Of a stretch of 20,849 bases of DNA, positions 1-19,915 are shown piece after piece. Made by a program: the position numbers and the translations under genes. The notes beneath the pieces are model-generated. The model was not told the DNA's origin, did not search any database, and was given only the letters and a program-made list of their open reading frames with translations. The stretch's first letter is position 1. Each line of letters begins with the position of its first letter. Source of the DNA: a virus (lineage: Duplodnaviria > Heunggongvirae > Uroviricota > Caudoviricetes); IMG/VR virus record IMGVR_UViG_2778261244_000002, positions 1 to 20,849 of that record; one strand, written 5' to 3'.

Positions 1-1053
1 TTACGGGGTAATGCCAACCGCTGCCGCCACTTTGTCGCCACTTGGCAGCGTTGCCAGAGGATTGAAACGGAGCGCCGTTTCCAGATGATCCGGTGCCAGA
101 TGTGCGTAACGCATAGTCATTTTTATATCGTGGTGTCCGAGAATTTTTTGTAAGGCCAGAATGTTTCCACCCGACATCATGAAGTGCGCCGCAAACGTAT
201 GGCGCAGAACGTGTGTGAGTTGACCGCGAGGGAGCACGATAGACGTTTTTTCCATCACGGATAAAAATTGAAAATAGCAGTCTGTGAAGAAATTGAACCC
301 ATCAAGCGCCATGATCTCTTCGTAAAGCTCTTTACTGATAGGGATGCTTCTGTTTTTCTTCCCCTTCGTTCTTACAAAGGTAATTCGGTATTTGGTCACC
401 TGTGAACGAGTAAGATTTACGGCTTCTCGCCAGCGTGCGCCTGTGCTTAAGCATATCTTAACTACCAGTGCCAGAATTGGGTCCTGACGTTTGCAATCAG
501 CCAGTAATTCAACAATCTGCTCATGGGTAAGCCATGCCATCTCTTTTTCTGCGATGGTGAATTTTCGCATGTTCTCCAGTGGGTTCGGATACGACCATTC
601 GCCCAGGCGGGATAGTTCGCTAAAAACACTACTTAGATAGCTTTGCTCCAGGTTGATGGTGACCGGGCTTGCTCCTTTCTTCCATTTCTCGCTGAAGTAG
701 ATCTCACCTGTCAGGCGTTTATCTCGATAGTGGGCAAACATTTTAGAGGTTAGATCAGTTGCAAGGGGATTGCCCAGAGCGTCAACCATCAGCAGCAATT
801 TGTCATAGACATGCTGCCCAGCTGTCAGTGATTTACCATGTAGTTTGAACCATAGCTCAACCACGTCTTTCAGGGTTCGACGATCCACTGATTCGCCCAG
901 CCAGGGCTTTGATTCGGTTTCTTCCATCGTGTGACGCTCAAAAGCCAGAGCTTCGCCTTTGGTGGCGAATTGTTTACGCACACGACGCCCACTTCGTCCG
1001 GCGGGGTAACATTCGCAAAGCCATTTCCCTGTGGTGAGTTTTCGTACTGCCAT
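1..1053 (-). CDS. int: Phage integrase, tyrosine recombinase (P2 Int-like)
   Basis: Translation carries the C-terminal tyrosine-recombinase motifs (HVLRHTFAAHFMMSGGNILALQKILGHHDIKMTMRYAHL) and overall resembles P2 Int. Start chosen at the internal ATG 1051-1053 (MAVRKLTTGKW...), preceded by a GGAGGG RBS; the track ORF reaching 1209 is judged an upstream over-extension. Stop at 1-3. Confidence 0.9.
   Translation of the reverse strand: MAVRKLTTGKWLCECYPAGRSGRRVRKQFATKGEALAFERHTMEETESKPWLGESVDRRTLKDVVELWFKLHGKSLTAGQHVYDKLLLMVDALGNPLATDLTSKMFAHYRDKRLTGEIYFSEKWKKGASPVTINLEQSYLSSVFSELSRLGEWSYPNPLENMRKFTIAEKEMAWLTHEQIVELLADCKRQDPILALVVKICLSTGARWREAVNLTRSQVTKYRITFVRTKGKKNRSIPISKELYEEIMALDGFNFFTDCYFQFLSVMEKTSIVLPRGQLTHVLRHTFAAHFMMSGGNILALQKILGHHDIKMTMRYAHLAPDHLETALRFNPLATLPSGDKVAAAVGITP
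20..41 (+). repeat. Candidate att core (attL copy) inside the 3' end of int
   Basis: Partner of the 17995-18016 repeat; lies within the last codons of int. Confidence 0.5.
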
Positions 1054-1084
1054 AAAAAATGCCCTCCAGTAGAGAGCATTTTTA

Positions 1085-1100
1085 CTGTATATATAACCAG
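1085..1100. promoter_or_regulatory. Candidate LexA box upstream of int
   Basis: CTGTATATATAACCAG (CTGT-N8-CCAG, AT-rich spacer) 32-47 nt upstream of the int ATG; one mismatch to the CTGT-N8-ACAG consensus. Confidence 0.35.
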
Positions 1101-1241
1101 TGTCAATGTATGAAATCCTACGACCATACATCTCACTGAAGCCATAATGAAGTTGGCTATTCTTTTTGCTATGTGAGCATGTAACTTTTGCGGTTAACCT
1201 GCGGCTCATTTTTATTTTAGACGCAGATATAAAAGCAAAAG

Positions 1242-1433
1242 TTATCGTGAGTTTTTAGTACAGATTTTTTTGGATTTACTAATAGTTCCATCATTGCAAA
1301 CGAATTTGCCATCTGAGGTACAGTGAGAAACACCTCCCTTTTTCCCTGAGCAGGGATAATTTCTAGCATAGGTAGTTAGTGGGTTTAATAACAAAGAACA
1401 TGACAAAACCACAAAAAATACCTTACCAAGCAT
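1242..1433 (-). CDS. Small secreted cysteine-rich, lysine-rich protein (63 aa), moron between cI and int
   Basis: Strong RBS (GGGAGGAAACTATG on the minus strand). N-terminal hydrophobic signal-peptide-like segment ([23 protein letters not shown]) followed by a 40-aa Lys-rich region with 4 Cys. Same orientation as cI and int with a 15-nt gap to the cI stop. Region looks AT-rich by eye. Confidence 0.6.
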
Positions 1434-1448: not shown

Positions 1449-2105
1449 CTATTTAACATACTTGACTGTTAAACTTATAATTTTACCAATTATTTCAATG
1501 TCTTCTATCTTGCATTCGAAGGCTCTGTTTCCACCCTCGACGAAGATTCTTCCACCGGGTAAACGAGTAATGTCACGGATCGTTATTTCGCCATCAATAC
1601 TTATTACCCATTTACCATCACGTATATCATCAAATTCTTTATCACAAATAAATTCAGAATTGTTATCTGTGATGACAAAAGGTTTTTTAAACGTAGAGGG
1701 TAGAAATCCCTTATCAAAAATATAAAAACCGTCTTTCTGCAATGCTCCATCAGACAATAAATATTTTTCTACTTCTATAGTATTTGTATTTGCTGATGCT
1801 TGCTTTGAACCATGCCCTGTTGTTAGCCAATTAAGCGAGGTGCCCGTTTCAAGGGCGCACTGGATTACCCAATCTGCTGGAAAAATATCACGCATATAGC
1901 GCGTTGCCATGGTGCTCTTAGAAACACCTAAATGATCACAGAGAGCCTGACGGGTACCGAACCCATATGCTTCAACTAAACGTTCTATGGCTTTCTTACC
2001 GCCGCTATTGAAATCCACAAGTCCTCCAAAGAAATCCAAAATTCGTTGACAGATTCCAAAAGCGATCTTAAAGTTGAGCCAGAAGTGTTCTTTTGGAGCC
2101 TTCAC
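1449..2105 (-). CDS. cI: 186-type CI immunity repressor (HTH N-terminal domain)
   Basis: N-terminal segment (ERLVEAYGFGTRQALCDHLGVSKSTMATRYMRD...CALETGTSLNWLTTGHG) resembles 186 CI. Divergent from the apl/cII operon and upstream of int. The first in-frame start is GTG at 2103-2105; the true start is uncertain (internal GTG or TTG possible). Confidence 0.8.
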   Translation of the reverse strand: MKAPKEHFWLNFKIAFGICQRILDFFGGLVDFNSGGKKAIERLVEAYGFGTRQALCDHLGVSKSTMATRYMRDIFPADWVIQCALETGTSLNWLTTGHGSKQASANTNTIEVEKYLLSDGALQKDGFYIFDKGFLPSTFKKPFVITDNNSEFICDKEFDDIRDGKWVISIDGEITIRDITRLPGGRIFVEGGNRAFECKIEDIEIIGKIISLTVKYVK

Positions 2106-2431: not shown

Positions 2432-2941
2432 ATGTTTGATTACCAAGTTTCCAAACATCCACATTTTGATGAAGCCTGTCGTGCATTCGCACTGCGCCAC
2501 AATCTGGTGCAACTGGCAGAACGTGCTGGCATGAATGTGCAGATTCTGCGGAACAAGCTGAACCCATCTCAACCTCATTTATTAACCGCACCAGAAATCT
2601 GGCTGCTTACCGATCTGACAGAAGATTCAACGCTGGTAGATGGTTTTCTGGCACAGATTCACTGCCTGCCATGTGTACCGATTAATGAGGTTGCAAAAGA
2701 GAAACTGCCGCATTACGTCATGAGCGCAACTGCAGAGATTGGACGTGTTGCAGCAGGTGCGGTATCTGGTGATGTAAAAACTAGTGCCGGTCGTCGTGAT
2801 GCTATCAGCAGCATTAACTCTGTAACACGACTGATGGCGCTGGCTGCTGTTTCATTGCAGGCCCGTTTACAGGCTAATCCTGCGATGGCGAGTGCAGTTG
2901 ATACCGTGACTGGCCTCGGTGCTTCATTCGGTTTGCTGTGA
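2432..2941 (+). CDS. cII: 186 CII-like lysogeny-establishment transcriptional activator
   Basis: Translation from [24 protein letters not shown]... is recalled as near-identical to 186 CII and gives the same 169-aa length; the ATG at 2432 is preferred over the track start at 2423. Confidence 0.85.
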
Positions 2942-7613: not shown

Positions 7614-7660
7614 GTTTTACATCAGTAAGATTATTATATACTGTAAATATAAACAGTGGT
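7614..7660 (+). promoter_or_regulatory. SOS promoter with LexA box (CTGT-N8-ACAG at 7641-7656)
   Basis: TTTACA (-35-like) then TATACT overlapping CTGTAAATATAAACAG, a perfect CTGT-N8-ACAG LexA box about 45 nt upstream of the 7699 ATG. Confidence 0.7.
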
Positions 7661-7698
7661 TATGTGTACAGTATTGTTTTGGTGTCATAGGAGGAAAG

Positions 7699-7887
7699 AT
7701 GCAGGACTATTTTTTGGAGTCTTTGAAGCTCCAGCGCATTGATTTTTTTCTTAAGCTTGTAGCGGCTAGTGAGTGTAGTGATGAAGAGAAGGGGCTGGCT
7801 CTGCAGTGGGTTTCTGAATTGACTGATGAACTCATGGCAAAAATCAGAAGCCACGAATACAACCGCTCAATGGATGTCATCAGCTGA
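7699..7887 (+). CDS. Tum-like (antirepressor N-terminal part?) small protein, LexA-regulated
   Basis: Strong AGGAGG RBS; immediately downstream of the LexA box and 10 nt upstream of the DinI-like gene. Functional call is positional analogy to the 186 tum operon. Confidence 0.55.
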   Translation: MQDYFLESLKLQRIDFFLKLVAASECSDEEKGLALQWVSELTDELMAKIRSHEYNRSMDVIS

Positions 7888-7897
7888 GGTGACTTTT

Positions 7898-8131
7898 ATG
7901 CGCATTGAAATAATGATCGATAAAGAGCAGAAGATTAGCCAGTCTACCCTGGACGCCCTTGAATCCGAGCTTTACCGCAATCTGCGCCCCCTGTATCCCA
8001 AAACGGTAATTCGCATTCGCAAAGGTAGCTCTAACGGTGTGGAACTAACCGGACTGCAACTGGATGAAGAAAGAAAACAAGTGATGAAAATTATGCAGAA
8101 GGTGTGGGAGGACGACAGCTGGCTGCATTAA
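7898..8131 (+). CDS. dinI: DinI-family protein
   Basis: MRIEIMIDKEQKISQSTLDALESELYRNL...MKIMQKVWEDDSW aligns by eye with E. coli DinI (MRIEVTIAK...ALAGELSRR...ILQETWESADDW); GAGGTG RBS. Confidence 0.8.
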   Translation: MRIEIMIDKEQKISQSTLDALESELYRNLRPLYPKTVIRIRKGSSNGVELTGLQLDEERKQVMKIMQKVWEDDSWLH

Positions 8132-8321: not shown

Positions 8322-8657
8322 TTACGAATGATCATTCTGTTTAGTCTTCATGAGAAAATCCCGAATCTTTGCCAAGTTTGAATTTTCGGGGATTGAATCC
8401 ATGTACGGATCACGCTCAAACACTAATTGCTCAGATTCAACGAAAGCCTGCCACTCTACTGGGTCTAGCTCAAATCCCATTGCTGTCATATCACTTTCAT
8501 CTTCCCCCTCGATCCAGTGGACTAAATAAAACAATTCATCATCAGGAGAATCATCCTCACCATCAACAATATCAACATCGGTTACAGTGATACGTAGGGT
8601 GGGATCGATTTTTGAGACATAAATTCCTAACTGTGGTATAGGGGGAATATTGTTCAT
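8322..8657 (-). CDS. Highly acidic hypothetical protein (111 aa)
   Basis: AAAGGAG RBS before the ATG at 8657; strongly acidic composition (GEDDSPDDE, EGEDESD); no recognised domain; oriented toward the dinI-like gene. Confidence 0.6.
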   Translation of the reverse strand: MNNIPPIPQLGIYVSKIDPTLRITVTDVDIVDGEDDSPDDELFYLVHWIEGEDESDMTAMGFELDPVEWQAFVESEQLVFERDPYMDSIPENSNLAKIRDFLMKTKQNDHS

Positions 8658-9036
8658 GGAAACTCCTTTTATTGGTGTTTGCTATTTGAATAAAAATACG
8701 CCAAACAGAGTGTTAACTGTGAATATGGAAAGAATCGTTGTAAGTACCCCGCTTAGGTGTCCCATTCTATTTTAGAGGTTCTCGTGCATATGGATTATGT
8801 TATCTGAAAGTTAACTTCCGCTTCCCGTTCACAGCGAACATTCATCTTTGTAAACCCGTATGATCCGTTTTTCAAGTGGCCATTCAGATACGGATTTTTA
8901 CTTCTTTGACAGTGCATGACTATGCTGCATGAAATCGCATGATCGATTGAGGATCGTCTTTGCTCAGATCTGCCAGAACTGGCGGGCTTTTGCTCATGTC
9001 ATGCATGTGCATGAAAACCACTGCATAAAGCGGGCA

Positions 9037-9060
9037 GGCGTGGCGGGGATACGAGCGCGC
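9037..9060 (+). other. cos-like GC-rich motif (tentative)
   Basis: GGCGTGGCGGGGATACGAGCGCGC resembles the start of the P2/186 cohesive end as remembered (GGCG[A/T]GGCGGGGAAAGCA...), within an otherwise AT-rich intergenic region; the match is partial. Confidence 0.25.
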
Positions 9061-9136
9061 GGATGAGTAATCTATACCATCATCTTGATAAAAGTATTAA
9101 AAATGGTAAATTTAGCAAGCTACATATTAAAGGAAA

Positions 9137-10534
9137 ATGAAGATGTATGAAGTAATTGATATATCAGCGCAGGAAATTAAGGCGTTGTTAAACACTGCTG
9201 AAGATCATTTCAATGATTTTAAAAGTAAGCAAATAGCGCCTAATAAATTACAAGAAACTTTTGTAGCATTTGCAAATGCTGATGGCGGTAATATTTATAT
9301 TGGCATAGAGGATGCAGCTTCGGGGAGAGAGCGTATATCTGGTTTCAATGAGCCAGAGGAAGCGAATGCTATTATTTCGACCTTATTGGAAAATACTAAT
9401 CCAGCTGTTGAGAATGTTGAGGTGGAATATTTAAGAACACCTTCCAATGGATTGATTTTACATGTGGATATACCAAAAAGCCCCAAAGTTCATTACACGG
9501 CCTCTGGCGATTGCTTTATAAGAGCTAACGCGCAAAAATTAAAAATAAAAGGTGAGCGAATTACTCAGCTTTCCTATTCTAAAGGCGCAGAACCTTATGA
9601 AAAAAAAGCAGTGGATATAGTTGAAGTAGAAGATATTCTTGAAAGTGAATATTATTCTGATTATTTACGTAGAATAGGAACGACTCAGTCACCGAGAGTT
9701 TTTTTAAAAAAACAACGACTGTTAACTAAGAAAGATGGTGAATTTGTCCCGAATGTAGGCTGTGTTTTACTATTTGATGAAGAGCCTCAAGGATGTTTAG
9801 ATACTCGATGTGCTGTAAAAGTATATCGGCTTAGAACAACTGAAGCAGAGTACAAACGTGAACAATTACAGGAAGATCCTGTAACGATTGAGGGGCCACT
9901 TGAAGTGGTTATTTTAAATACAATAGCAAAAGTAAAAGAATATGTTGATGGAGCATCATTCAAAGACGGCGAAAATCTAGTAAAACTTAGCTATCCTGCA
10001 GAAGCATTGAAGGAAATATTAGTTAATGCTGTTATTCATAGAGATTACAGCCAAAAGGATGATGTGCACGTAAAAGTTTATGACAACCGGATTGAAGTTC
10101 AAAGTCCAGGCAGATTGCCTGGATACATGACTATTAATAATTTATATGAAGAGCGGTTTTCTCGTAATCCAAATTTAGTGCGTTTGTTGCATAAACTTCC
10201 CAATCCAGTGAACCATGATATTGGTGAGGGGCTTGATACTGCAAAAAATGAATTGCGTAAGGCCGGGTTGGTAGCCCCGGTATTTGAAGAAAGGGGCAAT
10301 AATTTTGTTGTAATAGTTAAGCATCAAACAATAGCCTCAATTGAGGATGTGATTATTAATTATTTTAAAGAAAATCCAACGGGACAGCTCACAAATAAGT
10401 TGGTTAGACAATTAAGTGGCGAAGATGACCTTCAAAAGGTTAAAAAGGCATTGCAAAAGTTAAGGGAGGAGGGCGTAATAAAACCATTAGATCCTAACGC
10501 GAATCCTTTCAAATTTAAATATATTAAAGCTTAA
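9137..10534 (+). CDS. Schlafen-like AlbA_2 domain + HATPase_c_4-like domain + C-terminal wHTH protein (COG2865-type); candidate anti-phage cargo
   Basis: N-terminal EDHFNDFKS...ETFVAFANADGGNIYIGIED matches the AlbA_2/Schlafen-like signature; central LKEILVNAVIHRDYSQKDDVHVKVYDNRIEVQSPGRLPG matches HATPase_c_4; C-terminus looks like a winged HTH. AT-rich relative to flanks; followed by a hairpin terminator. The start may be the second ATG at 9143, which has better RBS spacing. Confidence 0.75.
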   Translation: MKMYEVIDISAQEIKALLNTAEDHFNDFKSKQIAPNKLQETFVAFANADGGNIYIGIEDAASGRERISGFNEPEEANAIISTLLENTNPAVENVEVEYLRTPSNGLILHVDIPKSPKVHYTASGDCFIRANAQKLKIKGERITQLSYSKGAEPYEKKAVDIVEVEDILESEYYSDYLRRIGTTQSPRVFLKKQRLLTKKDGEFVPNVGCVLLFDEEPQGCLDTRCAVKVYRLRTTEAEYKREQLQEDPVTIEGPLEVVILNTIAKVKEYVDGASFKDGENLVKLSYPAEALKEILVNAVIHRDYSQKDDVHVKVYDNRIEVQSPGRLPGYMTINNLYEERFSRNPNLVRLLHKLPNPVNHDIGEGLDTAKNELRKAGLVAPVFEERGNNFVVIVKHQTIASIEDVIINYFKENPTGQLTNKLVRQLSGEDDLQKVKKALQKLREEGVIKPLDPNANPFKFKYIKA

Positions 10535-10585: not shown

Positions 10586-11614
10586 TTATAGTTTATAGTG
10601 TTCGAAAGTTATTGCTTCTTCATTGATCCAATAGTTGAGATCTTGTAACTTCTTCTGAAGTGGCATCAGTTCATTCCGAACAAATACCCGGCTGGCCTTC
10701 TCCACATCCCCAAACCCTCCAACATTATTAGGCATAATCCCCATCATTTGCGGCGGCACGCGGTGCGCAGCCATCATGTCGTCGCGGCTGACATTTTTGA
10801 TATTCAGAAATTCATCCTTCGCCGCGACTTCTGATAACGGGATGATTTGAAGCCCGTCCTTTTTGCCGTTAGGCGAGTACATAAACAGATTGCGGAAGTT
10901 GCCTGGACCTTTGGCGCTTTTCATTGCGTTGCGGAGGTTGTTCACATCCTCCTGGTTCTGCGCGGCATCGGTCATGTACATGATGAAGCCTGCATGGCTG
11001 CCGTTGATGTAATACTTACGGCGGAACAGCGTGGCGGACTCGTTGAGCAGGGCTGACGGAATGGCAGAAAGATAGCCGGGCAGGCCGTAGATCTCCTGGT
11101 TAATGTCCGGTTCCATCAGATGAAAAATGCTGCCTTTCGTGAACTGATACGGCTGGGTTGTCATACCGTATTGCACAAACCAGTAGGTATCCAGGTCTAA
11201 CCCGCGTCGGGTGTATTTTGCCAGAGCAGGCTCAAGGGCGATAACTTCACCGAAGCGGTTCGTGCGTTTCTCCAGGTAGGCGTTACCAAATACCAGATAG
11301 TCCTGCACAAAACGTGAAAAAGCCTGCTGGCTGAGCAGCGGATGGGGGATGTAGGTACTGGTCAGAATGTTGCATTTCACCGCAATTGGTGAACTGTGAT
11401 GCACGGCGGCGCGGAAGGTGCGTGCCAGTCCGTCAAAGCTTACTGGCGGCTCATACCAGCGATCTGTCTGTACGCATTCCACATAGTCCAGTAGTTCGCG
11501 GCGGTCCAGAACAGGAACGGGATCACCGAAGCTGAATGCTTCGGCTGTAGTTTGACTTTTATGCTGGATCTGGTTCGTCGACGCAGCGCGGTTCTTCTTA
11601 CTCTTTCCCATCAA
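10586..11614 (-). CDS. Q: Portal (capsid) protein, P2 gpQ-like
   Basis: 342-aa protein of gpQ-like length, translationally coupled to the upstream P remnant (its start overlaps the P stop), in the P-Q leftward arrangement of P2. Confidence 0.85.
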   Translation of the reverse strand: MMGKSKKNRAASTNQIQHKSQTTAEAFSFGDPVPVLDRRELLDYVECVQTDRWYEPPVSFDGLARTFRAAVHHSSPIAVKCNILTSTYIPHPLLSQQAFSRFVQDYLVFGNAYLEKRTNRFGEVIALEPALAKYTRRGLDLDTYWFVQYGMTTQPYQFTKGSIFHLMEPDINQEIYGLPGYLSAIPSALLNESATLFRRKYYINGSHAGFIMYMTDAAQNQEDVNNLRNAMKSAKGPGNFRNLFMYSPNGKKDGLQIIPLSEVAAKDEFLNIKNVSRDDMMAAHRVPPQMMGIMPNNVGGFGDVEKASRVFVRNELMPLQKKLQDLNYWINEEAITFEHYKL

Positions 11615-12285
11615 AAAATCTCCACAATATTACTGGTATTGGCGGACTCGCCCTGCAGTGGTTCGTTAAACAGTGCGTGCATTGTTGCCCAGGCCAGATC
11701 GGCGTGGCTGGCTTCTTCGCTGCGGCTGGCTTCATAGGTCGGGCGGTTGCCGCTGGCGGTGGTGGCGCGACGGATTGCCATGAATGACTGCGCAATGTCG
11801 GTGTGCCCGGCGTCAAACTCCAGACGGCGGTGGCTGATAATGTCGTAGGCCTTGAGCACCAGGGCGTTTTTAACGTTGGGGTTGTAGACAAACTCCCGGA
11901 CGGCAGGAAAGAATGCTTTCACGTTCTCGTAAACCCCGTGACCAACGCCGGTTGAGTCGATACCGATATAAGTCACGTTGTACTGTTCGGTCAGTTTTTT
12001 GATGGCGTCAGCCTGAGCGCGGAAGTCCATCCCGCGCCACTGGTGACGCTCAAGAATGCGGAATTTACCGCCCGGTACGGCTGGCGGTGCCACCACCACG
12101 CATCCGGCACTGTCGCCGTTCTGAGTACCTTTTGCGGGGTCATAACCGATCCATACTTCGCGCCAGCCAAACGGGCGCAGGGCCAGTGCATGGAAGTCGG
12201 TCCAGATTTCCCAGCTGTCCACCATGCACGCCTGCAGTTCGCTGAGCGGGAACACGGACGCGAGATCGTCCACGAACTCGCACAT
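11611..12285 (-). pseudogene. P: Terminase large subunit (gpP-like), C-terminal nuclease-domain fragment only
   Basis: Only about 224-263 aa of an expected ~590-aa terminase remain (open frame reaches at most 12402); the sequence contains the RNaseH-like nuclease region (GYDPAKG...GIDSTGVGHGV) and lacks the N-terminal ATPase. Confidence 0.7.
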
Positions 12286-12545
12286 CAGCAGGTTCTGGTA
12301 TCCAGCGTGACGATACCGGGGAAGTGCAGGCCGTGGAGCTTGTCGTGCGTGGACGTCACAAAGAAGTGGATTCCGGCGAGTGGAAGACGGGCGAAAGCAA
12401 CACTACCAAAGTGACCAGTACCAACAGCTACGCGAAGCTGACCATCAATGGTGAGGTGCTCTATGAAGTGGACCTTATCAACATGGTGGAAATTGTGGAC
12501 GGTGTGGACCTGATGGAAGCGCACCGCAACGCCCTCGGCCTCTGA
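12246..12545 (+). pseudogene. Probable tail-tube (FII-like) C-terminal fragment
   Basis: Open frame without a credible start, ending 55 nt upstream of gene E; called on position (FII precedes E in P2) and tail-protein-like sequence (KLTINGEVLYEVDLINMVEIVDGVDL). Confidence 0.3.
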
Positions 12546-12599
12546 TGTATCTGAACGGCGCGGGATACCGCGCCAGAACCCAATTGACAGGACAGCAAA

Positions 12600-12902
12600 A
12601 TGAGCGATAAGCAGACTGAAAAGACTATTCAACTGGATACCCCCATCAAGCGCGGTAAAACAGAAATCACCGAAATTGTGCTGCGTAAACCGCAGTCCGG
12701 TGCGCTGCGCGGTACACGCCTGCAGGCCATTATGGATATGGATGTAAACGCGATGATGACCGTGATCCCCCGCATCTCCAGTCCGGCACTGACCGCACAG
12801 GAAATTGCAGAGATGGACCCGGCAGATCTCACTGCCATGTCGGTTGAGGTTGTCACTTTTTTGTTGAAGAAGTCGGTGCTTGCCGGTTTACCGACAGCCT
12901 GA
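12600..12902 (+). CDS. E: Tail assembly chaperone gpE
   Basis: 100-aa ORF directly upstream of the tape measure gene with the slippery heptamer TTTTTTG at 12857-12863 near its end. Confidence 0.8.
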   Translation: MSDKQTEKTIQLDTPIKRGKTEITEIVLRKPQSGALRGTRLQAIMDMDVNAMMTVIPRISSPALTAQEIAEMDPADLTAMSVEVVTFLLKKSVLAGLPTA

Positions 12903-13036
12903 CGGTTGACGATCTGGTGGCAGATATCGCCACCATTTTTCACTGGCCGCCATCCGTTACTGACGTTATGCCGCTGACCGAAGTGCTGGAATGGCGGTAT
13001 AAAGCGATTCAGAGAAGCGGGGCCAACGATGAGTGA
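12600..13036 (+). CDS. E': gpE+E' -1 frameshift fusion product
   Basis: After a -1 slip at T_TTT_TTG (12857-12863) the -1 frame stays open to a TGA at 13034-13036, adding about 58 aa (...VEEVGACRFTDSLTVDDLVADIATIFHWPPSVTDVMPLTEVLEWRYKAIQRSGANDE) and overlapping the T start. Confidence 0.65.
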
Positions 13037-16000
13037 TAATAACCTGCGCCTTCAGGTCATTCTTAATGCGGTTGACAAGCTCACCCGCCCATTTCGATCC
13101 GCGCAGGCCAGTTCAAGAGAACTGGCTGCTGCTGTCAAAAAATCCCGCGATGCAATAAAGCAGCTTGATCAGGCCGGGAGCAGTCTGGACAGCTTCCGAA
13201 AGCTGCAGGCAGAAAATCAGAAATTAGGCGACAGGCTGAACTATGCCCGCCAGCGTGCAAATTTGCTCAGTCAGGAACTGGGAGCGATGGGGCCGCCTTC
13301 GCAACGTCAGGTTGTTGCTCTGGGCCGTCAACGGCTGGCTGTTCAGCGCCTGGAAGAACGCCAGAAAAAGCTGCAGCAGCAGACGGCGCTTGTGCGTGCT
13401 GAACTGTACCGGGCGGGAATTTCTGCGAAAGATGATGCGGGAGCAACTGCCCGTTTAGCCCGTGAAACATCACGTTATAACCAGGAATTGTCGAAACAGG
13501 AGGCGCGGCTGAAGCGACTGGGTGAAGCTCAGCGCAGGATGAATGCGGCGCGTGCCAGTTATGCCCGTTCGCTGGAGGTGCGCGATCGTATTGCAGGAGC
13601 CGGAGCCACTACCACGGCTGCAGGGCTGGCAATGGGGACGCCAGTGATGGCGGCAGTAAAAAGCTATACCAGCATGGAAGATGCCATGAAAGGTGTGGCA
13701 AAGCAGGTCAATGGTCTGCGTGACGATAATGGAAACCGTACTGCACGTTTTTATGAAATGCAGGATGCCATCAAGGCTGCCAGCGAACAGTTGCCGATGG
13801 AAAACGGTGCGGTGGACTTCGCTGCACTGGTTGAAGGTGGTGCGCGCATGAACGTCGCAGACCCTGACGACAGCTGGGAAGACCAGAAACGTGACCTGCT
13901 GGCCTTCGCCAGTACGGCAGCAAAGGCGGCAACAGCCTTTGAGCTGCCAGCGGATGAACTGTCAGAAAGTCTGGGGAAAATCGCCCAGCTCTACAAAATA
14001 CCTACCCGCAATATTGAACAGCTCGGCGATGCGCTGAACTATCTGGATGATAACGCCATGTCGAAAGGGGCGGACATCATTGATGTGATGCAACGTCTGG
14101 GCGGTGTGGCTGACCGTCTGGATTATCGTAAAGCGGCGGCACTGGGTTCCACCTTTCTGACACTGGGCGCTGCGCCGGAGGTTGCAGCCAGTGCAGCAAA
14201 CGCGATGGTGCGTGAATTGTCCATTGCCACCATGCAAAGCAAGAGTTTCTTTGCAGGGATGAATCTGCTGAAGCTCAATCCTGAAGTGATTGAAAAGCAG
14301 ATGACGAAGGATGCGATGGGAACTATCCAGCGTGTGCTGGAGAAGGTGAACGCACTGCCGCAGGACAAGCGTCTGTCTGCCATGACCATGTTGTTTGGTA
14401 AAGAGTTTGGCGATGACGCGGCGAAACTGGCAAACAACCTGCCGGAACTACAGCGCCAGCTAAAACTGACAGCGGGCAATGATGCGCTCGGTTCCATGCA
14501 GAAAGAATCCGACATCAACAAGGACTCACTTTCTGCTCAGTGGTTGCTGGTTAAAACCGGAGCGCAGAATACCTTCAGCAGCCTGGGCGAAACGCTGCGC
14601 CAGCCGCTGATGGATATTCTGTACACGGTGAAAAGCGTTACGGGAGCGTTGCGTCGCTGGGTGGAAGCTAACCCGGAACTCACGGGCACACTGATGAAAG
14701 TAGCCGCTATTGTGGCTGCGGTTACCGTAGGCCTCGGCACCTTGGCTGTGGCGCTGGCTGCAGTGCTGGGGGCGCTGGCAGTCATCCGTCTGGGATTCTC
14801 TGTGCTGGGCATCAAAACGTTACCTTCCGTTACGGCAGCAGTAACACGAACTAGCAGCGCGTTGTCCTGGCTGGCTGGCGCTCCACTGGCAGTGCTGCGA
14901 CGCGGGCTTGCTTCATCGGGTAACGCAGCGGGTTTACTTACTGCGCCGTTGTCGTCTTTGCGCCGTACGGCATCACTGACGGGAAATGTCCTGAAAACTG
15001 TAGCAGGTGCGCCGGTTGCACTATTGCGGTCTGGATTATCCGCTTTACGTGCTGTTGCTGTGATGTTTATGAATCCTCTGGCGGTACTGCGCGGTGGACT
15101 GGCTGCCGCAGGCGCGGTGCTTCGTGTGCTTGCATCTGGTCCGCTGGCGATGCTGCGCGTTGCCCTGTATGCCATATCTGGTCTGTTAGGTGCTCTGCTC
15201 AGTCCGATAGGTCTTGTGGTTACTGCACTGGCGGGCGTGGCGCTGGTTGTCTGGAAATACTGGCAACCCATCACCGCATTTCTCGGTGGCGTGGTGGAAG
15301 GATTCAAAGCGGCGGCAGGTCCCATCAGTGCTGCATTCGAACCACTTAAGCCTGTGTTTCAGTGGATTGGCGACAAAGTACAGGCGCTGTGGGGCTGGTT
15401 TACTGATCTGCTGACGCCCGTTAAGTCGACCTCTGCCGAACTGCAGAGTGCAGCGGCAATGGGGCGGCGATTCGGGGAGGCACTGGCGGAAGGGCTGAAT
15501 ATGGTCATGCATCCGCTGGACTCCCTGAAATCCGGCGTTTCCTGGTTGCTGGAGAAGCTCGGTATTGTCAGTAAAGAGGCCGCAAAGGCAAAACTGCCGG
15601 AAAGCGTGACGCGTCAGCAACCTGCGACGGTGAATGCAGACGGTAAAGTGATGATGCCATCGGGTGGTTTTCCATCATGGGGATATGGCTTTGCGGGGAT
15701 GTATGACAGCGGCGGGTATATCCCGCGCGGGCAGTTTGGCATCGTCGGTGAAAACGGGCCGGAAATTGTTAACGGCCCGGCAAATGTGACCAGCCGGAGA
15801 AATACAGCTGCACTGGCTGCCGTTGTTGCCGGAATGATGGGCGTTGCTGCCGCGCCAGCAGAGCTTCCACCGTTGCACCCTTTGGCACTTCCCGCGAAAG
15901 GTGGAGAAGCAATTGTGAGTCGCGCAGCCACTGTGCCACTCGTTCAACGGATTGAGGCACCGACGCAGATCATCATTCAGACGCAGCCAGGACAAAGTGC

Positions 16001-16106
16001 GCAGGATATTGCGCGGGAGGTGGCACGCCAGCTTGATGAACGTGAACGCAGGCTGAAGGCAAAAGCCAGGAGTAACTACAGCGATCAGGGGGGATACGAC
16101 GCATGA
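13029..16106 (+). CDS. T: Tail tape measure protein, gpT-like
   Basis: 1025-aa protein with an N-terminal coiled-coil-like region, central hydrophobic segments, repeated (A/L)LR(R/S/G)GL-type stretches and a Gly-rich C-terminal part; position after E/E'. Confidence 0.85.
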   Translation: MSDNNLRLQVILNAVDKLTRPFRSAQASSRELAAAVKKSRDAIKQLDQAGSSLDSFRKLQAENQKLGDRLNYARQRANLLSQELGAMGPPSQRQVVALGRQRLAVQRLEERQKKLQQQTALVRAELYRAGISAKDDAGATARLARETSRYNQELSKQEARLKRLGEAQRRMNAARASYARSLEVRDRIAGAGATTTAAGLAMGTPVMAAVKSYTSMEDAMKGVAKQVNGLRDDNGNRTARFYEMQDAIKAASEQLPMENGAVDFAALVEGGARMNVADPDDSWEDQKRDLLAFASTAAKAATAFELPADELSESLGKIAQLYKIPTRNIEQLGDALNYLDDNAMSKGADIIDVMQRLGGVADRLDYRKAAALGSTFLTLGAAPEVAASAANAMVRELSIATMQSKSFFAGMNLLKLNPEVIEKQMTKDAMGTIQRVLEKVNALPQDKRLSAMTMLFGKEFGDDAAKLANNLPELQRQLKLTAGNDALGSMQKESDINKDSLSAQWLLVKTGAQNTFSSLGETLRQPLMDILYTVKSVTGALRRWVEANPELTGTLMKVAAIVAAVTVGLGTLAVALAAVLGALAVIRLGFSVLGIKTLPSVTAAVTRTSSALSWLAGAPLAVLRRGLASSGNAAGLLTAPLSSLRRTASLTGNVLKTVAGAPVALLRSGLSALRAVAVMFMNPLAVLRGGLAAAGAVLRVLASGPLAMLRVALYAISGLLGALLSPIGLVVTALAGVALVVWKYWQPITAFLGGVVEGFKAAAGPISAAFEPLKPVFQWIGDKVQALWGWFTDLLTPVKSTSAELQSAAAMGRRFGEALAEGLNMVMHPLDSLKSGVSWLLEKLGIVSKEAAKAKLPESVTRQQPATVNADGKVMMPSGGFPSWGYGFAGMYDSGGYIPRGQFGIVGENGPEIVNGPANVTSRRNTAALAAVVAGMMGVAAAPAELPPLHPLALPAKGGEAIVSRAATVPLVQRIEAPTQIIIQTQPGQSAQDIAREVARQLDERERRLKAKARSNYSDQGGYDA

Positions 16107-17685: not shown

Positions 17686-17775
17686 TTCTTCGCAATGGAG
17701 AACTTTTAAGTTTGCAAAATGGAATAATGCGGTATCATTATTGTGAATTTAGCAAAAATGGGGAGAACTCGAAAA

Positions 17776-17994
17776 ATGATGATTTGCCCACTGTGTGGAA
17801 GTGCCGCCCATACTCGCAGCAGTTTTCAGGTATCTTCATTGACCAAAGAGCGTTACAACCAGTGCCAGAACATTAACTGCAGCCATACTTTTGTTACCCA
17901 TGAAACTTTTGTTCGTTCGATTGCAACGCCAAAAGAGTCAAATCCGGTTCAGCCGCATCCAATGAAATCAGGACAGGTGGCGCTCTCTCTTTGA
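17776..17994 (+). CDS. ogr: Ogr/Delta-type zinc-finger late-gene transcriptional activator
   Basis: MMICPLCGSAAHTRSS...ERYNQCQNINCSHTF matches the Ogr C2-C2 zinc-finger pattern (CPLC...CQNxNC); the ATG at 17776 is preferred over the track start. Confidence 0.85.
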   Translation: MMICPLCGSAAHTRSSFQVSSLTKERYNQCQNINCSHTFVTHETFVRSIATPKESNPVQPHPMKSGQVALSL

Positions 17995-18229: not shown

Positions 18230-19915
18230 TTATCCTAATCCTGGCCATACCATGACGATGATTGTCCCTGCCAGCGTCAGCAGGACGTTGGCGATTGCAT
18301 AGGTGCCCGCATAGCCCAGCGCCGGGATGTTACTGCGAGCTGTATCACTGATGATCTCCATTGCCGGCGCGCAGGTACGTGCGCCCATCATTGCGCCGAA
18401 CAACAGCGCGCGGTTCATTCGCAATACATAAGCACCGAACAAGAAACAGATAACCACGGGCACCAGACTGACAATCAATCCGGCAATCAACATCTGACCG
18501 CCAATCGCGCCCAGGCCGTTATTAATACCGCTACCGGCGCTCAGACCAACGCCTGCCATAAACACCATCAAGCCGAACTCTTTCACCATGCTTAATGCAC
18601 CCTGCGGAATGTAACCGAAGGTCGGGTGGTTAGCACGCATAAAGCCCAGCATAATTCCGGCGAATAACAACCCGGCAGCGTTCCCCATGCCGAAACTGAA
18701 TGTGCTGAACTGGAAGGTGATCATCCCGATCATCAGCCCAATAACAAAGAAGGCGCAGAATGCCAGCAGGTCAGTGACCTGGCTGTGAATCGAGATAAAG
18801 CCGATGCGATCGGCGATGGTTTTTACGCGGCGGGCATCGCCGCTGACTTGTAAAACGTCACCTTTGTTAAGCACGACGTTGTCATCTATCGGCATCTCAA
18901 TCTGGCTACGAATGACGCGGTTAAGGAAGCAACCGTGATCGGTCAACTTCAGTTGTGCGAGACGTTTACCTACAGCGTTATGGTTTTTAACGACCACTTC
19001 TTCAGTGACGATACGCATGTCGAGAAGGTCACGATCGAAAACTTCTTTACCGTTACGGAAGCTGGGATCGAGTCGGGCATGGGCGTCGGGATAGCCTACC
19101 AACGCTATTTCATCGCCCATTTGTAGCACGGCATCACCGTCTGGATTTGCCAGAATCCCGTTACGTCGAATACGTTCAATGTAGCAGCCGGTTTGTCGAT
19201 AAATACCCAGTTCACGCAGATTTTTGCCGTCGGTCCAGGCCACCAGTTCCGGGCCGACGCGATAGGCGCGGATCACCGGTAAATAAACCTTACGGTTGGC
19301 ATCAGTGTCCAGGCCACGTTCGCGGGCGATTTGCTGGGCGCTGGTCTGTAAGTCCTGATGCTGCAATTTCGGCAAGTAACGCGCACCAACAATCAAACTC
19401 ACCAGACCGATTAAATAGGTTAAGGCATACCCGAGGCTCAGATTATCCAGTGCCAGTGAGAGCTGCCTGCTTTCCATGCCGGAATGACGCAGTGTATCGC
19501 CAGCACCGACCAGAACCGGTGTCGACGTCATAGAGCCTGCTAACATACCGGCCGTCAGGCCAATATCCCAGCCAAACAGCTTACCTAACCCTAAGGCGAT
19601 CACCAGCGCACTGCCAACCATCACCAGTGCTAACATTAGGTAATTTTTCCCATCGCGAAAAAAAATGGAAAAAAAGTTCGGTCCGGCTTCGACCCCGACG
19701 CAGAAAATAAACAGCATAAAGCCAAGATTAAGCGCATCGGTGTTAATGCTGAAATGTTGTTGGCCTAATAACAGCGATACGACTAAAACGCCAATGGAAT
19801 TACCCAGTTGGATCGAACCAAGTCGTAACTTTCCGAGACATAGCCCAAGCGCGAGGACCACAAATAATAACAGAATGTAATTCCCATTTAACAATTCGGC
19901 GACGTTTATATTCAC
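18230..19915 (-). CDS. ybjL: Putative AAE-family transporter YbjL (TrkA-C domains)
   Basis: 561-aa membrane protein recognised as E. coli YbjL from its N-terminus ([24 protein letters not shown]...) and length. Confidence 0.85.

What the first reader, a model, noticed from the sequence alone, without database searches (positions are those of the whole stretch)
1085..1100. Second LexA-like box immediately upstream of int
CTGTATATATAACCAG keeps the critical CTG and CAG triplets with correct spacing and an AT-rich core, 32-47 nt upstream of the int start. SOS control of integrase, or of a promoter within the cI-moron-int operon, would be unusual for P2-like phages.
Basis: seen in the sequence. 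Interest (0 to 1): 0.35.

Follow-up and report, generated by a model that had tools for sequence, protein, structure and literature searches.

The report
SOS (LexA) operator controlling prophage integrase
The short palindrome just upstream of the integrase gene of this 186/P2-like prophage is very probably a real binding site for the DNA-damage repressor LexA, placed inside the integrase gene's own promoter, so integrase would be made when the cell's DNA is damaged; I found no paper describing this for this phage family, and nobody has tested the binding.

Summary
CTGTATATATAACCAG is at 1085-1100, 32-47 nt before the int ATG (1053, minus strand). The 20-mer TACTGTATATATAACCAGTG matches the E. 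coli LexA consensus at 17 of 20 positions. It scores better than 27 of 29 reference SOS boxes, and no shuffle of the window reached it (0 of 200).

On the int strand the box fills the 17-nt spacer of a promoter aimed at int: TTGACA, box, AAAAAT. A box sits at the same place (27-34 nt before ATG) in 121 related loci with 39 different 20-mers. These include integrases only 53-57% identical, from at least 15 enterobacterial genera. CTG and CAGT are invariant while the flanks are randomised.

The box belongs to a fixed module: an inverted repeat like the phage 186 CII site, -35, LexA box, -10, a leader hairpin that buries the ribosome-binding site, then int. The module occurs where int is separated from cI by cargo genes or follows ogr. 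It is absent where int abuts cI (186, PSP3).

The window also has a 186-like SOS operon with LexA boxes at 7639-7673.

Most likely int is repressed by LexA and switched on by DNA damage, together with prophage induction. LexA binding, the transcription start and CII action are untested. I found no published description.

The parts
1083..1102 (.). LexA operator (SOS box), 20-mer TACTGTATATATAACCAGTG.
   Evidence: 17 of 20 matches to the consensus. HI 3.0, best in the window, reached by 0 of 200 shuffles. Conserved at a fixed position in 121 loci with 39 distinct 20-mers, all HI <= 10.1; CTG and CAGT carry 2.0 bits.
1101..1106 (-). Predicted -35 hexamer TTGACA of the int promoter (P_int).
   Evidence: Promoter scan: TTGACA-17-AAAAAT on the minus strand, 10 of 12 matches. 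A -35 with at least 4 of 6 matches is present in 62 of 62 distinct related sequences (TTGACC, TTGACA, TTTACA).
1078..1083 (-). Predicted -10 hexamer AAAAAT (alternative TAAAAA at 1079-1084) of P_int. TACAGT (1084-1089) inside the box is another candidate -10.
   Evidence: Positions just 3' of the box carry 1.1-1.6 bits across relatives. The start site has not been mapped. In 186 p95 the annotated -10 is the LexA half-site TACTGT, so a -10 inside the box is also possible.
1106..1131 (.). Inverted repeat ATGTATG-N12-CATACAT abutting the -35. Candidate binding site for the phage CII activator.
   Evidence: The annotated 186 CII site at pE is ATGTTTG-N13-CAAACAT. The pattern ATGTWTG-N12/13-CAWACAT occurs only twice in the window, here and at 2432-2458, with 0 expected. 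It is present with at most 2 mismatches in 58 of 61 distinct related upstream segments against 0.4% of shuffles.
1055..1083 (-). Leader hairpin AAAAAUGCUCUCU-acu-GGAGGGCAUUUUU immediately before the ATG. The 3' arm contains the Shine-Dalgarno sequence GGAGG (1063-1067). The U-run gives it an intrinsic-terminator shape.
   Evidence: -17.5 kcal/mol, z -5.3 on the int-sense strand, against -10.2 on the antisense strand. A hairpin of dG <= -5 is present in 44 of 46 distinct related leaders (median z -5.1), with at least 8 unrelated stem sequences, and the SD is always in the 3' arm.
1..1053 (-). int, tyrosine integrase of the P2/186 family (350 aa). This is the gene controlled.
   Evidence: Pfam Int_N and Phage_integrase. 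97-100% identical in Klebsiella and E. coli P2-like phages.
1242..1433 (-). 63-aa cargo gene (annotated as YdcA family in RefSeq), inserted between cI and int.
   Evidence: phrog_6000. In relatives it is replaced by other cargo (KAP NTPase, ASCH and others) while the int module is unchanged.
1449..2105 (-). cI immunity repressor of the 186 type. The true start is probably the GTG at 2018, giving 189 aa.
   Evidence: Pfam Phage_CI_repr and Phage_CI_C. 33% identical to 186 CI.
2432..2458 (.). CII site of the establishment promoter (pE equivalent), ATGTTTG-N13-CAAACAT, at the start of cII. Context for the repeat at P_int.
   Evidence: Same position and sequence type as the annotated 186 CII site. 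cII (2432-2941) is 69% identical to 186 CII.
7616..7673 (+). p95-like SOS promoter (TTTACA-17-TACTGT) with a LexA box at 7639-7658 (HI 4.2) and a weaker overlapping one at 7654-7673 (HI 11.9). It drives ORFs 7699-7887 and 7826/7899-8131 (DinI-like).
   Evidence: DinI Pfam hit. 41% identity to the C-terminal half of 186 Tum. The layout matches PSP3 tumA/tumB.

Best explanation
The palindrome is a functional LexA operator inside a dedicated integrase promoter.

Anatomy, reading the int (minus) strand: CII-type inverted repeat (1131-1106), -35 TTGACA (1106-1101), LexA box (1102-1083) filling the spacer, -10 AAAAAT (1083-1078), a hairpin that buries the ribosome-binding site and ends in a U-run (1083-1055), then the ATG (1053).

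In an undamaged lysogen a LexA dimer on the box would block RNA polymerase. The hairpin would stop or silence read-through from the cI-cargo transcript. Little or no Int would therefore be made.

DNA damage activates RecA and LexA cleaves itself. That would open two phage promoters together. The p95-like SOS operon (7616-8131) would, as in phage 186, inactivate CI and so turn on apl, the excisionase. P_int would supply Int. Int plus Apl then excise the prophage.

The upstream inverted repeat probably lets CII stimulate the same promoter during establishment of lysogeny, as lambda CII does at pI.

Shown: the sequence anatomy, its scores and its conservation. Inferred: LexA binding, repression, the start site, CII action and the insulating role of the hairpin.
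For: Box quality:
- 17 of 20 matches to the consensus, HI 3.0, reached by 0 of 200 shuffles.
- The matrix recovers the annotated or expected LexA sites of 186 and PSP3.

Position:
- The box is exactly the 17-nt spacer of TTGACA/AAAAAT aimed at int.
- The same promoter geometry is found in 62 of 62 distinct relatives.

Phylogenetic footprint:
- A box lies 27-34 nt before the int ATG in 40 of 70 genome loci and 80 of 80 IMG/VR loci.
- These carry 39 distinct 20-mers, all with HI <= 10.1.
- CTG and CAGT carry 2.0 bits, while positions -40 to -31 carry about 0.1 bit.
- Box-bearing integrases form two deep clades only about 55% identical to each other.

The module moves with int:
- It is unchanged with different upstream cargo.
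- It is also kept in a different genome layout, D-ogr-module-int.
- It is absent where int abuts cI or a cargo ORF.

The phage already uses LexA: there is a 186-like SOS operon with strong boxes at 7639-7673.

CII link:
- The repeat equals the annotated 186 CII site.
- The phage encodes a CII 69% identical to 186 CII.
Against: - No binding or expression data exist, so everything functional is inferred.
- The reference matrix was recalled from memory.
- One half-site is CTGG rather than CTGT.
- The -10 is weak and the start site is unknown. A start upstream of the hairpin would change the hairpin's role.
- A LexA-shut int promoter leaves open how Int is supplied for integration in undamaged cells. 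CII would have to act with LexA still bound 3-4 bp away, or read-through would have to suffice.
- The CII-like repeat has a 12-bp spacer here, against 13 at pE. From memory of Shearwin & Egan 2000, a 1-bp change weakens 186 CII binding.
- The prophage copy in this window is deleted for most structural genes, so in this copy the control may serve only excision or be vestigial.
Confidence: 0.8

Rival explanations
1. The palindrome is the operator of another, phage-encoded or host, DNA-binding protein (for example CI, Apl, Int or IHF) and only resembles a LexA box.
For: The right half (ATACAGT) is more strictly conserved than the left. This hints at a constraint beyond a symmetric LexA dimer. The module also contains a second protein-binding repeat.
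Against: The site matches the LexA consensus at 17 of 20 positions, and all 39 variants stay within the range of proven SOS boxes. The same motif sits at the phage's 186-like SOS promoter. The cI-apl intergenic region, where CI operators should lie, has no CTG-N10-CAG. The annotated 186 CI and Apl sites are unrelated in sequence. The asymmetry is explained if the right half doubles as, or adjoins, a -10 element.
Confidence: 0.06
2. The site binds LexA, but the regulated transcript is not int. It would be a plus-strand transcript running back into the cargo and cI region as an antisense RNA, or the site has a purely architectural role.
For: The box is palindromic, so orientation is not fixed by the box itself. 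A plus-strand terminator-like hairpin lies at 1188-1204.
Against: No plus-strand promoter was found at the box. The sequence to the right of 1131 is cargo-specific and is replaced in relatives, while the box, -35, -10, hairpin and int stay together. The distance to the int ATG is fixed at 27-34 nt. The leader hairpin is more stable on the int-sense strand because of G-U pairs.
Confidence: 0.05
3. It is a chance AT-rich palindrome in a promoter spacer with no regulatory role.
For: Promoter spacers and -10 regions are AT-rich. CTG-N10-CAG alone occurs 12 times in the window.
Against: None of 200 shuffles reached its score. CTG and CAGT are invariant across 39 sequence variants and integrases about 55% identical, while neighbouring positions are randomised. 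The box is missing, together with the rest of the module, from relatives in which int abuts cI.
Confidence: 0.03

Closest known systems
LexA-repressed p95 promoter of the tum (antirepressor) operon of coliphage 186, and tumA/tumB of PSP3
   Same: Same phage family, same host repressor and same logic of using LexA cleavage as the induction signal. The box overlaps core promoter elements: in 186 the annotated -10 is the half-site TACTGT. The window has its own copy of this operon at 7616-8131.
   Different: There LexA controls an antirepressor, not the recombinase. 186 and PSP3 have no box at int. In 186 int overlaps cI and is transcribed with it from pL/pE.
LexA control of integron integrase genes (intI). 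Guerin et al. 2009 Science, as cited in PMC3323433; Cambray et al. 2011, PMC3108266.
   Same: A tyrosine recombinase gene of a mobile element carries a LexA box overlapping its promoter. The box is conserved across many lineages, so recombination is licensed by DNA damage (abstract of PMC3108266, seen).
   Different: A different recombinase subfamily and a different element (gene-cassette platform versus prophage). There is no partner excisionase, no CII-type site and no leader hairpin.
Lambda pI, the CII-activated int promoter
   Same: A dedicated int promoter separate from the repressor operon, apparently carrying a site for the phage's establishment activator (lambda CII activates int; PMC7708051 introduction).
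   Different: Lambda CII and 186 CII are unrelated proteins. Lambda pI has no LexA box, and lambda supplies Int for excision from pL. CII action at the present promoter is only inferred from the repeat.
Canonical P2/186 int expression (int co-transcribed with C or cI from Pc or pL/pE)
   Same: Same integrase family, the same neighbouring genes (cI, apl, cII) and the same recombination directionality factor (Apl/Cox, phrog_575).
   Different: Here int lies 395 nt from cI behind a cargo gene and a terminator-like hairpin, and it has its own promoter elements. In a second group of relatives it is not next to cI at all but follows ogr.

Membership tests
Gammaproteobacterial LexA operator (SOS box) | Palindrome with CTG and CAG separated by 10 nt and an AT-rich core (consensus TACTGTATATATATACAGTA) | tested here: met
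   TACTGTATATATAACCAGTG matches at 17 of 20 positions. One half is CTGG instead of CTGT, as in several proven sites (own knowledge).
Gammaproteobacterial LexA operator (SOS box) | Matrix score (heterology index) within the range of experimentally proven sites | tested here: met
   HI 3.0 against a reference range of 2.2-11.8. Ranked better than 27 of 29 reference sites. The matrix was recalled from memory but recovers the 186 p95 and PSP3 tumA sites.
Gammaproteobacterial LexA operator (SOS box) | Overlaps the core promoter of the regulated gene | tested here: met
   The box fills the spacer of a predicted TTGACA-17-AAAAAT promoter directed at int. The promoter is predicted, not mapped.
Gammaproteobacterial LexA operator (SOS box) | Conserved upstream of orthologous genes while the flanks diverge | tested here: met
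   121 loci and 39 variants at a fixed distance. CTG and CAGT carry 2.0 bits against about 0.1 bit in the flanks.
Gammaproteobacterial LexA operator (SOS box) | Binds LexA, and the gene is induced by DNA damage in a recA/lexA-dependent way | not testable with these tools
   No binding or expression data could be obtained, and none were found in the papers searched.
186-type CII-activated promoter (pE type) | Two inverted 7-bp half-sites ATGTTTG / CAAACAT | tested here: met
   The window has ATGTATG / CATACAT, one change per half. Many relatives have the exact 186 half-sites. 186 reference site.
186-type CII-activated promoter (pE type) | Half-sites 20 bp centre to centre (13-bp spacer) | tested here: not met
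   The window has a 12-bp spacer, 19 bp centre to centre. Among relatives 34 have N12 and 23 have N13.
186-type CII-activated promoter (pE type) | Half-sites flank a poor -35, with the repeat centred about 36-38 bp upstream of the start | tested here: inconclusive
   In 186 the repeat centre is about 36-38 bp upstream of the start implied by the TACAAT -10. Here it would be about -41 if TACAGT is the -10, or about -48 if AAAAAT is. The -35 is a consensus TTGACA. The start site is unknown.
186-type CII-activated promoter (pE type) | The phage encodes a 186-type CII | tested here: met
   The window's CII is 69% identical to 186 CII over 169 aa. This could not be checked for the ogr-int group of relatives.
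Intrinsic (Rho-independent) terminator | GC-rich stem-loop followed by a U-run | tested here: met
   The window has a 13-bp stem (8 core pairs) followed by UUUUUU, -17.5 kcal/mol. Many relatives have the same shape, but the Rahnella, Serratia and Yersinia versions lack the U-run. The feature common to all is burial of the SD, not termination.
Canonical 186/P2 lysogenic operon (repressor and int co-transcribed) | int immediately follows or overlaps the repressor gene, with no intervening promoter or terminator | tested here: not met
   There is a 395-nt gap holding a cargo gene, promoter elements and a hairpin. Compare 186, where cI and int overlap.

The most novel reading that the evidence does not exclude
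The box is one input of a self-contained, three-layer integrase expression cassette.

(1) A CII site activates the promoter during establishment of lysogeny.
(2) A LexA operator keeps it shut in the lysogen and opens it on DNA damage.
(3) The promoter is embedded in a terminator and SD-trapping hairpin. The predicted start falls inside the 5' arm in 60 of 60 relatives. Only transcripts arriving from upstream (cI-cargo or late genes) would then form the hairpin and be silenced, while P_int transcripts escape.

This uncoupling of int from the immunity operon would be what allows the cI-int junction to act as a cargo and defence-gene insertion hotspot. It would also allow the int-attP module to be relocated, as in the ogr-int layout.
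Probability: 0.35. Interest if true: 0.65.

Novelty: new member of a known kind. Interest (0 to 1): 0.5.

Why it matters
In the textbook 186/P2 switch, Int is made passively with the repressor, and direction is set only by Apl/Cox. A LexA-gated int promoter would mean that a large, widespread branch of this family couples the recombinase itself to the SOS signal, as integrons do. The branch is in about 13% of complete E. coli genomes (713 of 5,426), including BL21, and in many other Enterobacterales.

This bears on how stably these prophages and their cargo or defence genes are kept, and on how antibiotics that induce SOS mobilise them. It also explains how the cI-int junction can accept varied cargo without disturbing Int levels. 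The idea is directly testable in a standard laboratory strain.

Tried and rejected
- Plus-strand targets: no plus-strand promoter was found at the box. The only plus-strand reading frame nearby, a 13-codon ORF at 1107-1148, is simply the inverted repeat. Rejected.
- The 402-aa ORF 1-1209 that reads through the box is an artefact of an open frame. Homologues and RefSeq start int at 1053.
- attP or Int arm sites: in 186 attP lies beyond the 3' end of int. Here that is off the left edge of the window, so the box is not attP.
- CI operator: there is no similar palindrome in the cI-apl intergenic region.
- Rfam: no family matches 900-2500, only sub-threshold chance hits.
- tRNA genes near int in 11 related loci: none.
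- The 62-aa ORF behind the second SOS site shows no BLAST similarity to 186 Tum or PSP3 TumA. Calling it an antirepressor therefore rests on position only.
- Co-variation between the half-site variants at pE and at P_int within the same phage: no consistent pattern.
- Literature: seven full-text searches and four papers read found no description of LexA control of int in P2/186-like phages. The library lacks most subscription journals, so this is not proof of absence.
- A coding bug pooled cI and cII hits. The conclusion drawn from it (compact cII-apl-cI-int layout in box-less loci, a gap of at least 398 nt in box-bearing loci) was re-checked by reading the sequences.

Full report
**1. What is in the window**

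The left 8 kb is the early region of a 186-type member of the P2 family (Peduoviridae).
- int lies on the minus strand at 1053-1 (350 aa; Pfam Int_N and Phage_integrase).
- A 63-aa cargo gene that RefSeq calls YdcA family lies at 1433-1242.
- A 186-type cI lies at 2105/2018-1449 (Pfam Phage_CI_repr and Phage_CI_C; 33% identical to 186 CI).
- On the plus strand come a Cox/Apl-like gene at 2164-2367 (phrog_575) and cII at 2432-2941 (69% identical to 186 CII).
- Further right are the replication gene A and then a 186-like SOS operon. Its promoter is TTTACA-17-TACTGT, with a strong LexA box at 7639-7658 and a weaker overlapping one at 7654-7673.
- That promoter is followed by a 62-aa ORF and a DinI-like ORF (41% identical to the C-terminal half of 186 Tum). 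PSP3 tumA/tumB has the same layout.

The phage therefore already uses LexA for induction.

**2. The observation**

CTGTATATATAACCAG is at 1085-1100, 32-47 nt upstream of the int ATG.
- The 20-mer TACTGTATATATAACCAGTG matches the E. coli consensus at 17 of 20 positions.
- Against a symmetrised count matrix of 29 E. coli SOS boxes (recalled from memory) its heterology index is 3.0. That beats 27 of the 29 reference sites.
- The only comparable site in the window is the one at 7639 (HI 4.2). Unrelated sequence starts at HI 15.
- None of 200 shuffles of the window reached either score.
- As an independent check, the matrix ranks the GenBank-annotated LexA site of 186 p95 (HI 1.9) and the site upstream of PSP3 tumA (HI 0.8) first in those genomes. 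It finds nothing near their int genes.

**3. Anatomy around the box, on the int strand**

...GAG ATGTATG gtcgtaggattt CATACAT TGACA CTGGTTATATATACAG T AAAAAT GCTCTCtactgGAGGGCATTTTTT ATG.

The promoter scan reports TTGACA (1106-1101), 17 nt, AAAAAT (1083-1078) on the minus strand. The LexA box is that spacer. Bound LexA would therefore exclude RNA polymerase.

Two further elements flank it.

(a) The inverted repeat ATGTATG-N12-CATACAT (1131-1106) lies upstream.
- The 186 GenBank record annotates the CII site at pE as ATGTTTG-N13-CAAACAT. The window has exactly that at the start of cII (2432-2458).
- The pattern ATGTWTG-N12/13-CAWACAT occurs only at these two places in 20.8 kb, with none expected.
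- It occurs only at the annotated CII site in the right 9.6 kb of 186.

(b) Between the -10 and the ATG is a hairpin whose 3' arm holds the Shine-Dalgarno sequence GGAGG, followed by six U.
- It folds at -17.5 kcal/mol with z -5.3 on the sense strand.
- On the antisense strand it reaches only -10.2, because two positions are G-U pairs.

**4. Comparative evidence**

The DNA from int up to about 1111-1131 is 96-97% identical in Klebsiella phages KP12 and 4LV2017 and in E. coli phage vB_EcoM-813R9. It is present in 713 of 5,426 complete E. coli genomes, including BL21.

Homology breaks just upstream of the inverted repeat. Beyond that point each phage carries different cargo between cI and int: the YdcA-like gene, a KAP P-loop NTPase, an SMC-like ATPase, an ASCH gene and others.

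A scan of one genome per species returned 77 loci with related integrases.
- Of the 70 with an intact int start, 40 have a box of HI <= 10.1 whose 20-mer ends 27-34 nt before the ATG.
- All 80 IMG/VR loci have it too.
- The hosts span Escherichia, Klebsiella, Raoultella, Citrobacter, Enterobacter, Kluyvera, Serratia, Yersinia, Pectobacterium, Rahnella, Ewingella, Pantoea, Brenneria, Mixta, Winslowiella and Acerihabitans. Their integrases are down to 53-57% identical to the one in the window.
- Across 67 distinct upstream sequences there are 39 different 20-mers. CTG and CAGT carry the full 2.0 bits, the core varies (0.8-1.5 bits), and positions further upstream carry about 0.1 bit.

This is the signature of selection on a LexA site, not of recent common descent.

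On a neighbour-joining tree of the integrases, box-bearing loci form two deep clades plus one isolated branch.

**5. The module is all-or-none**

- The CII-like repeat, with at most 2 mismatches and ending 3-4 nt before the 20-mer, is in 58 of 61 distinct box-bearing upstream segments. It appears in 0.4% of shuffles. Its spacer is 12 bp in 34 segments and 13 bp in 23.
- A -35 with at least 4 of 6 matches, plus a -10 at 16-18 nt, is present in 62 of 62.
- A leader hairpin with dG <= -5 is present in 44 of 46 distinct leaders (median z -5.1). At least eight unrelated stem sequences occur, for example GCTCTC/GAGGGC, GCCCTCA/TGAGGGC, CTCTCCTAAA/TTTAGGAGAG, CACATTCTC/GAGAATGTG, CCCCCTT/AAGGGGG and CCTCCATT/AATGGAGG. 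The SD is always in the 3' arm. These are compensatory changes.
- Box-less relatives have int directly abutting or overlapping the end of cI or of a cargo ORF, with none of these elements. They include 186, PSP3 and the Fels-2-like loci.
- In one box-bearing clade (Rahnella, Pantoea and others) the module lies not next to cI but after the late genes D and ogr, on the same strand, downstream of a separate canonical terminator.

The module is therefore a portable int expression cassette. It is found wherever int cannot be translated as part of the repressor transcript.

**6. Mechanism proposed**

In the lysogen, LexA occupies the spacer and P_int is shut. Transcripts entering from upstream form the hairpin and are terminated or left untranslated.

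DNA damage leads to LexA self-cleavage. This derepresses P_int and, in parallel, the p95-like operon. The p95-like operon, by analogy with 186 Tum (PMC7708051), inactivates CI and turns on apl. Int plus Apl then excise the prophage. The CII-type repeat suggests extra activation during establishment, as at lambda pI.

Shown here: the sequences, their scores, geometry and conservation. Inferred: LexA binding and repression (my confidence about 0.8), CII action (about 0.55) and the hairpin as a read-through filter (about 0.5).

For the filter idea, the predicted +1 (7 nt after the -10) falls inside the 5' arm in 60 of 60 relatives. But if TACAGT inside the box is the -10, the transcript would begin at the base of the hairpin, which would then be a leader structure that limits translation. 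The -10 annotated for 186 p95 is the half-site TACTGT, so this alternative is credible. Only start-site mapping can decide.

**7. Open problem**

If LexA shuts P_int in healthy cells, Int for integration after infection must come from elsewhere. It could come from CII acting in spite of LexA bound 3-4 bp away, or from leaky read-through of the pE transcript. The 12-bp spacer is also one bp shorter than at pE. From memory of Shearwin & Egan (J Biol Chem 2000), such a change weakens 186 CII binding. I could not check whether the ogr-int group encodes a 186-type CII.

**8. Comparison with what is known**

The closest systems are:
- the 186 p95-tum promoter, with the same family and the same repressor but a different target gene;
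- integron intI promoters, where LexA-repressed tyrosine recombinases are conserved across lineages (PMC3108266);
- lambda pI, a separate CII-activated int promoter.

The canonical 186/P2 arrangement, with int co-transcribed with the repressor, is not met here. Full-text searches and the P2-family regulatory review (PMC3448106, which has no occurrence of 'SOS') gave no description of LexA control of int in this family. The library is incomplete, so I rate the box as a new member of a known kind (a new SOS-regulon target). The composite cassette is the more novel reading.

**9. Verdict**

Interest is moderate (0.5). A specialist in 186/P2 biology would find direct SOS control of int unexpected. 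The element is common, present even in BL21, and simple to test.

Noticed in passing
window 1106-1131, compared with 2432-2458: A conserved inverted repeat, ATGTATG-N12-CATACAT, abuts the -35 of the int promoter. It has the half-sites of the annotated 186 CII site, which the window carries at the start of cII with a 13-bp spacer. It suggests a CII-activated int promoter, which to my knowledge has not been described for 186-type phages.
   Followed up: yes
window 1055-1083 (minus strand): A leader hairpin with the Shine-Dalgarno sequence in its 3' arm and a U-run directly before the int ATG. It is conserved through compensatory changes in 44 of 46 distinct related leaders. The predicted start site of the int promoter falls inside its 5' arm.
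   Followed up: yes
window 7616-8131: A 186-like SOS operon with two overlapping LexA boxes (7639-7658, 7654-7673). Tum is split as in PSP3 tumA/tumB: a 62-aa ORF (7699-7887, phrog_698, no detectable similarity to 186 Tum or PSP3 TumA) overlaps a DinI-like ORF (7826/7899-8131).
   Followed up: partly
window 10586-13029: The prophage looks defective. A portal gene (10586-11614, minus) and a 224-aa C-terminal fragment of the large terminase (11611-12285, minus) lie only about 750 nt from the tail tape-measure gene (13029-16106). Capsid, lysis and most tail genes are missing.
   Followed up: partly
window 1242-1433; L001 3637-5313; L002 1851-2900; L003 3094-4621; L005 3093-5297: The cI-int junction is a cargo hotspot. 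Otherwise near-identical prophages carry a YdcA-like gene, an SMC-like ATPase, a KAP P-loop NTPase, an ASCH-domain gene or other unknown genes there. All are on the cI strand, and the breakpoint is just upstream of the int promoter module.
   Followed up: partly
window 8322-10534 and 18230-19915: Further probable cargo. A 465-aa protein has Schlafen AlbA_2 and HATPase_c_4 domains (9137-10534). A 111-aa ORF of unknown function lies at 8322-8657 (minus). A 561-aa ORF (phrog_4489, unknown function) lies after ogr (17743-17994). The first resembles abortive-infection or defence-type genes.
   Followed up: no
L039 2576-2602 (also L030, L032, L033, L035): In the Rahnella-type prophages, where int follows ogr, a second repeat of the same kind (ATGTATG-N13-CATACAA) sits between a divergent FosA/glyoxalase-like cargo gene and ogr. 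The same regulator may therefore also act at the late-activator gene.
   Followed up: no
L039 5658-5900: A duplicated 3' fragment of int (80-aa ORF, its central ~56 residues identical to a stretch near the C-terminus of int) lies 1.6 kb downstream of the intact int, beyond a 367-aa cargo gene. This may be a trace of the attachment site overlapping int or of an earlier integration.
   Followed up: no
window 1-3, and L083-L162: The window begins exactly at the int stop codon. Most related IMG/VR contigs end 3 nt after it. The prophage boundary calls therefore cut off attL and the host flank. In complete E. coli genomes the neighbouring host gene is rcdA.
   Followed up: partly
window 1188-1212 (plus strand): A terminator-like hairpin works only on the plus strand (it needs G-U pairs) and lies in the 3' flank of the YdcA-like cargo gene. 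It belongs to the cargo cassette, not to the int module. Its purpose is unknown.
   Followed up: no
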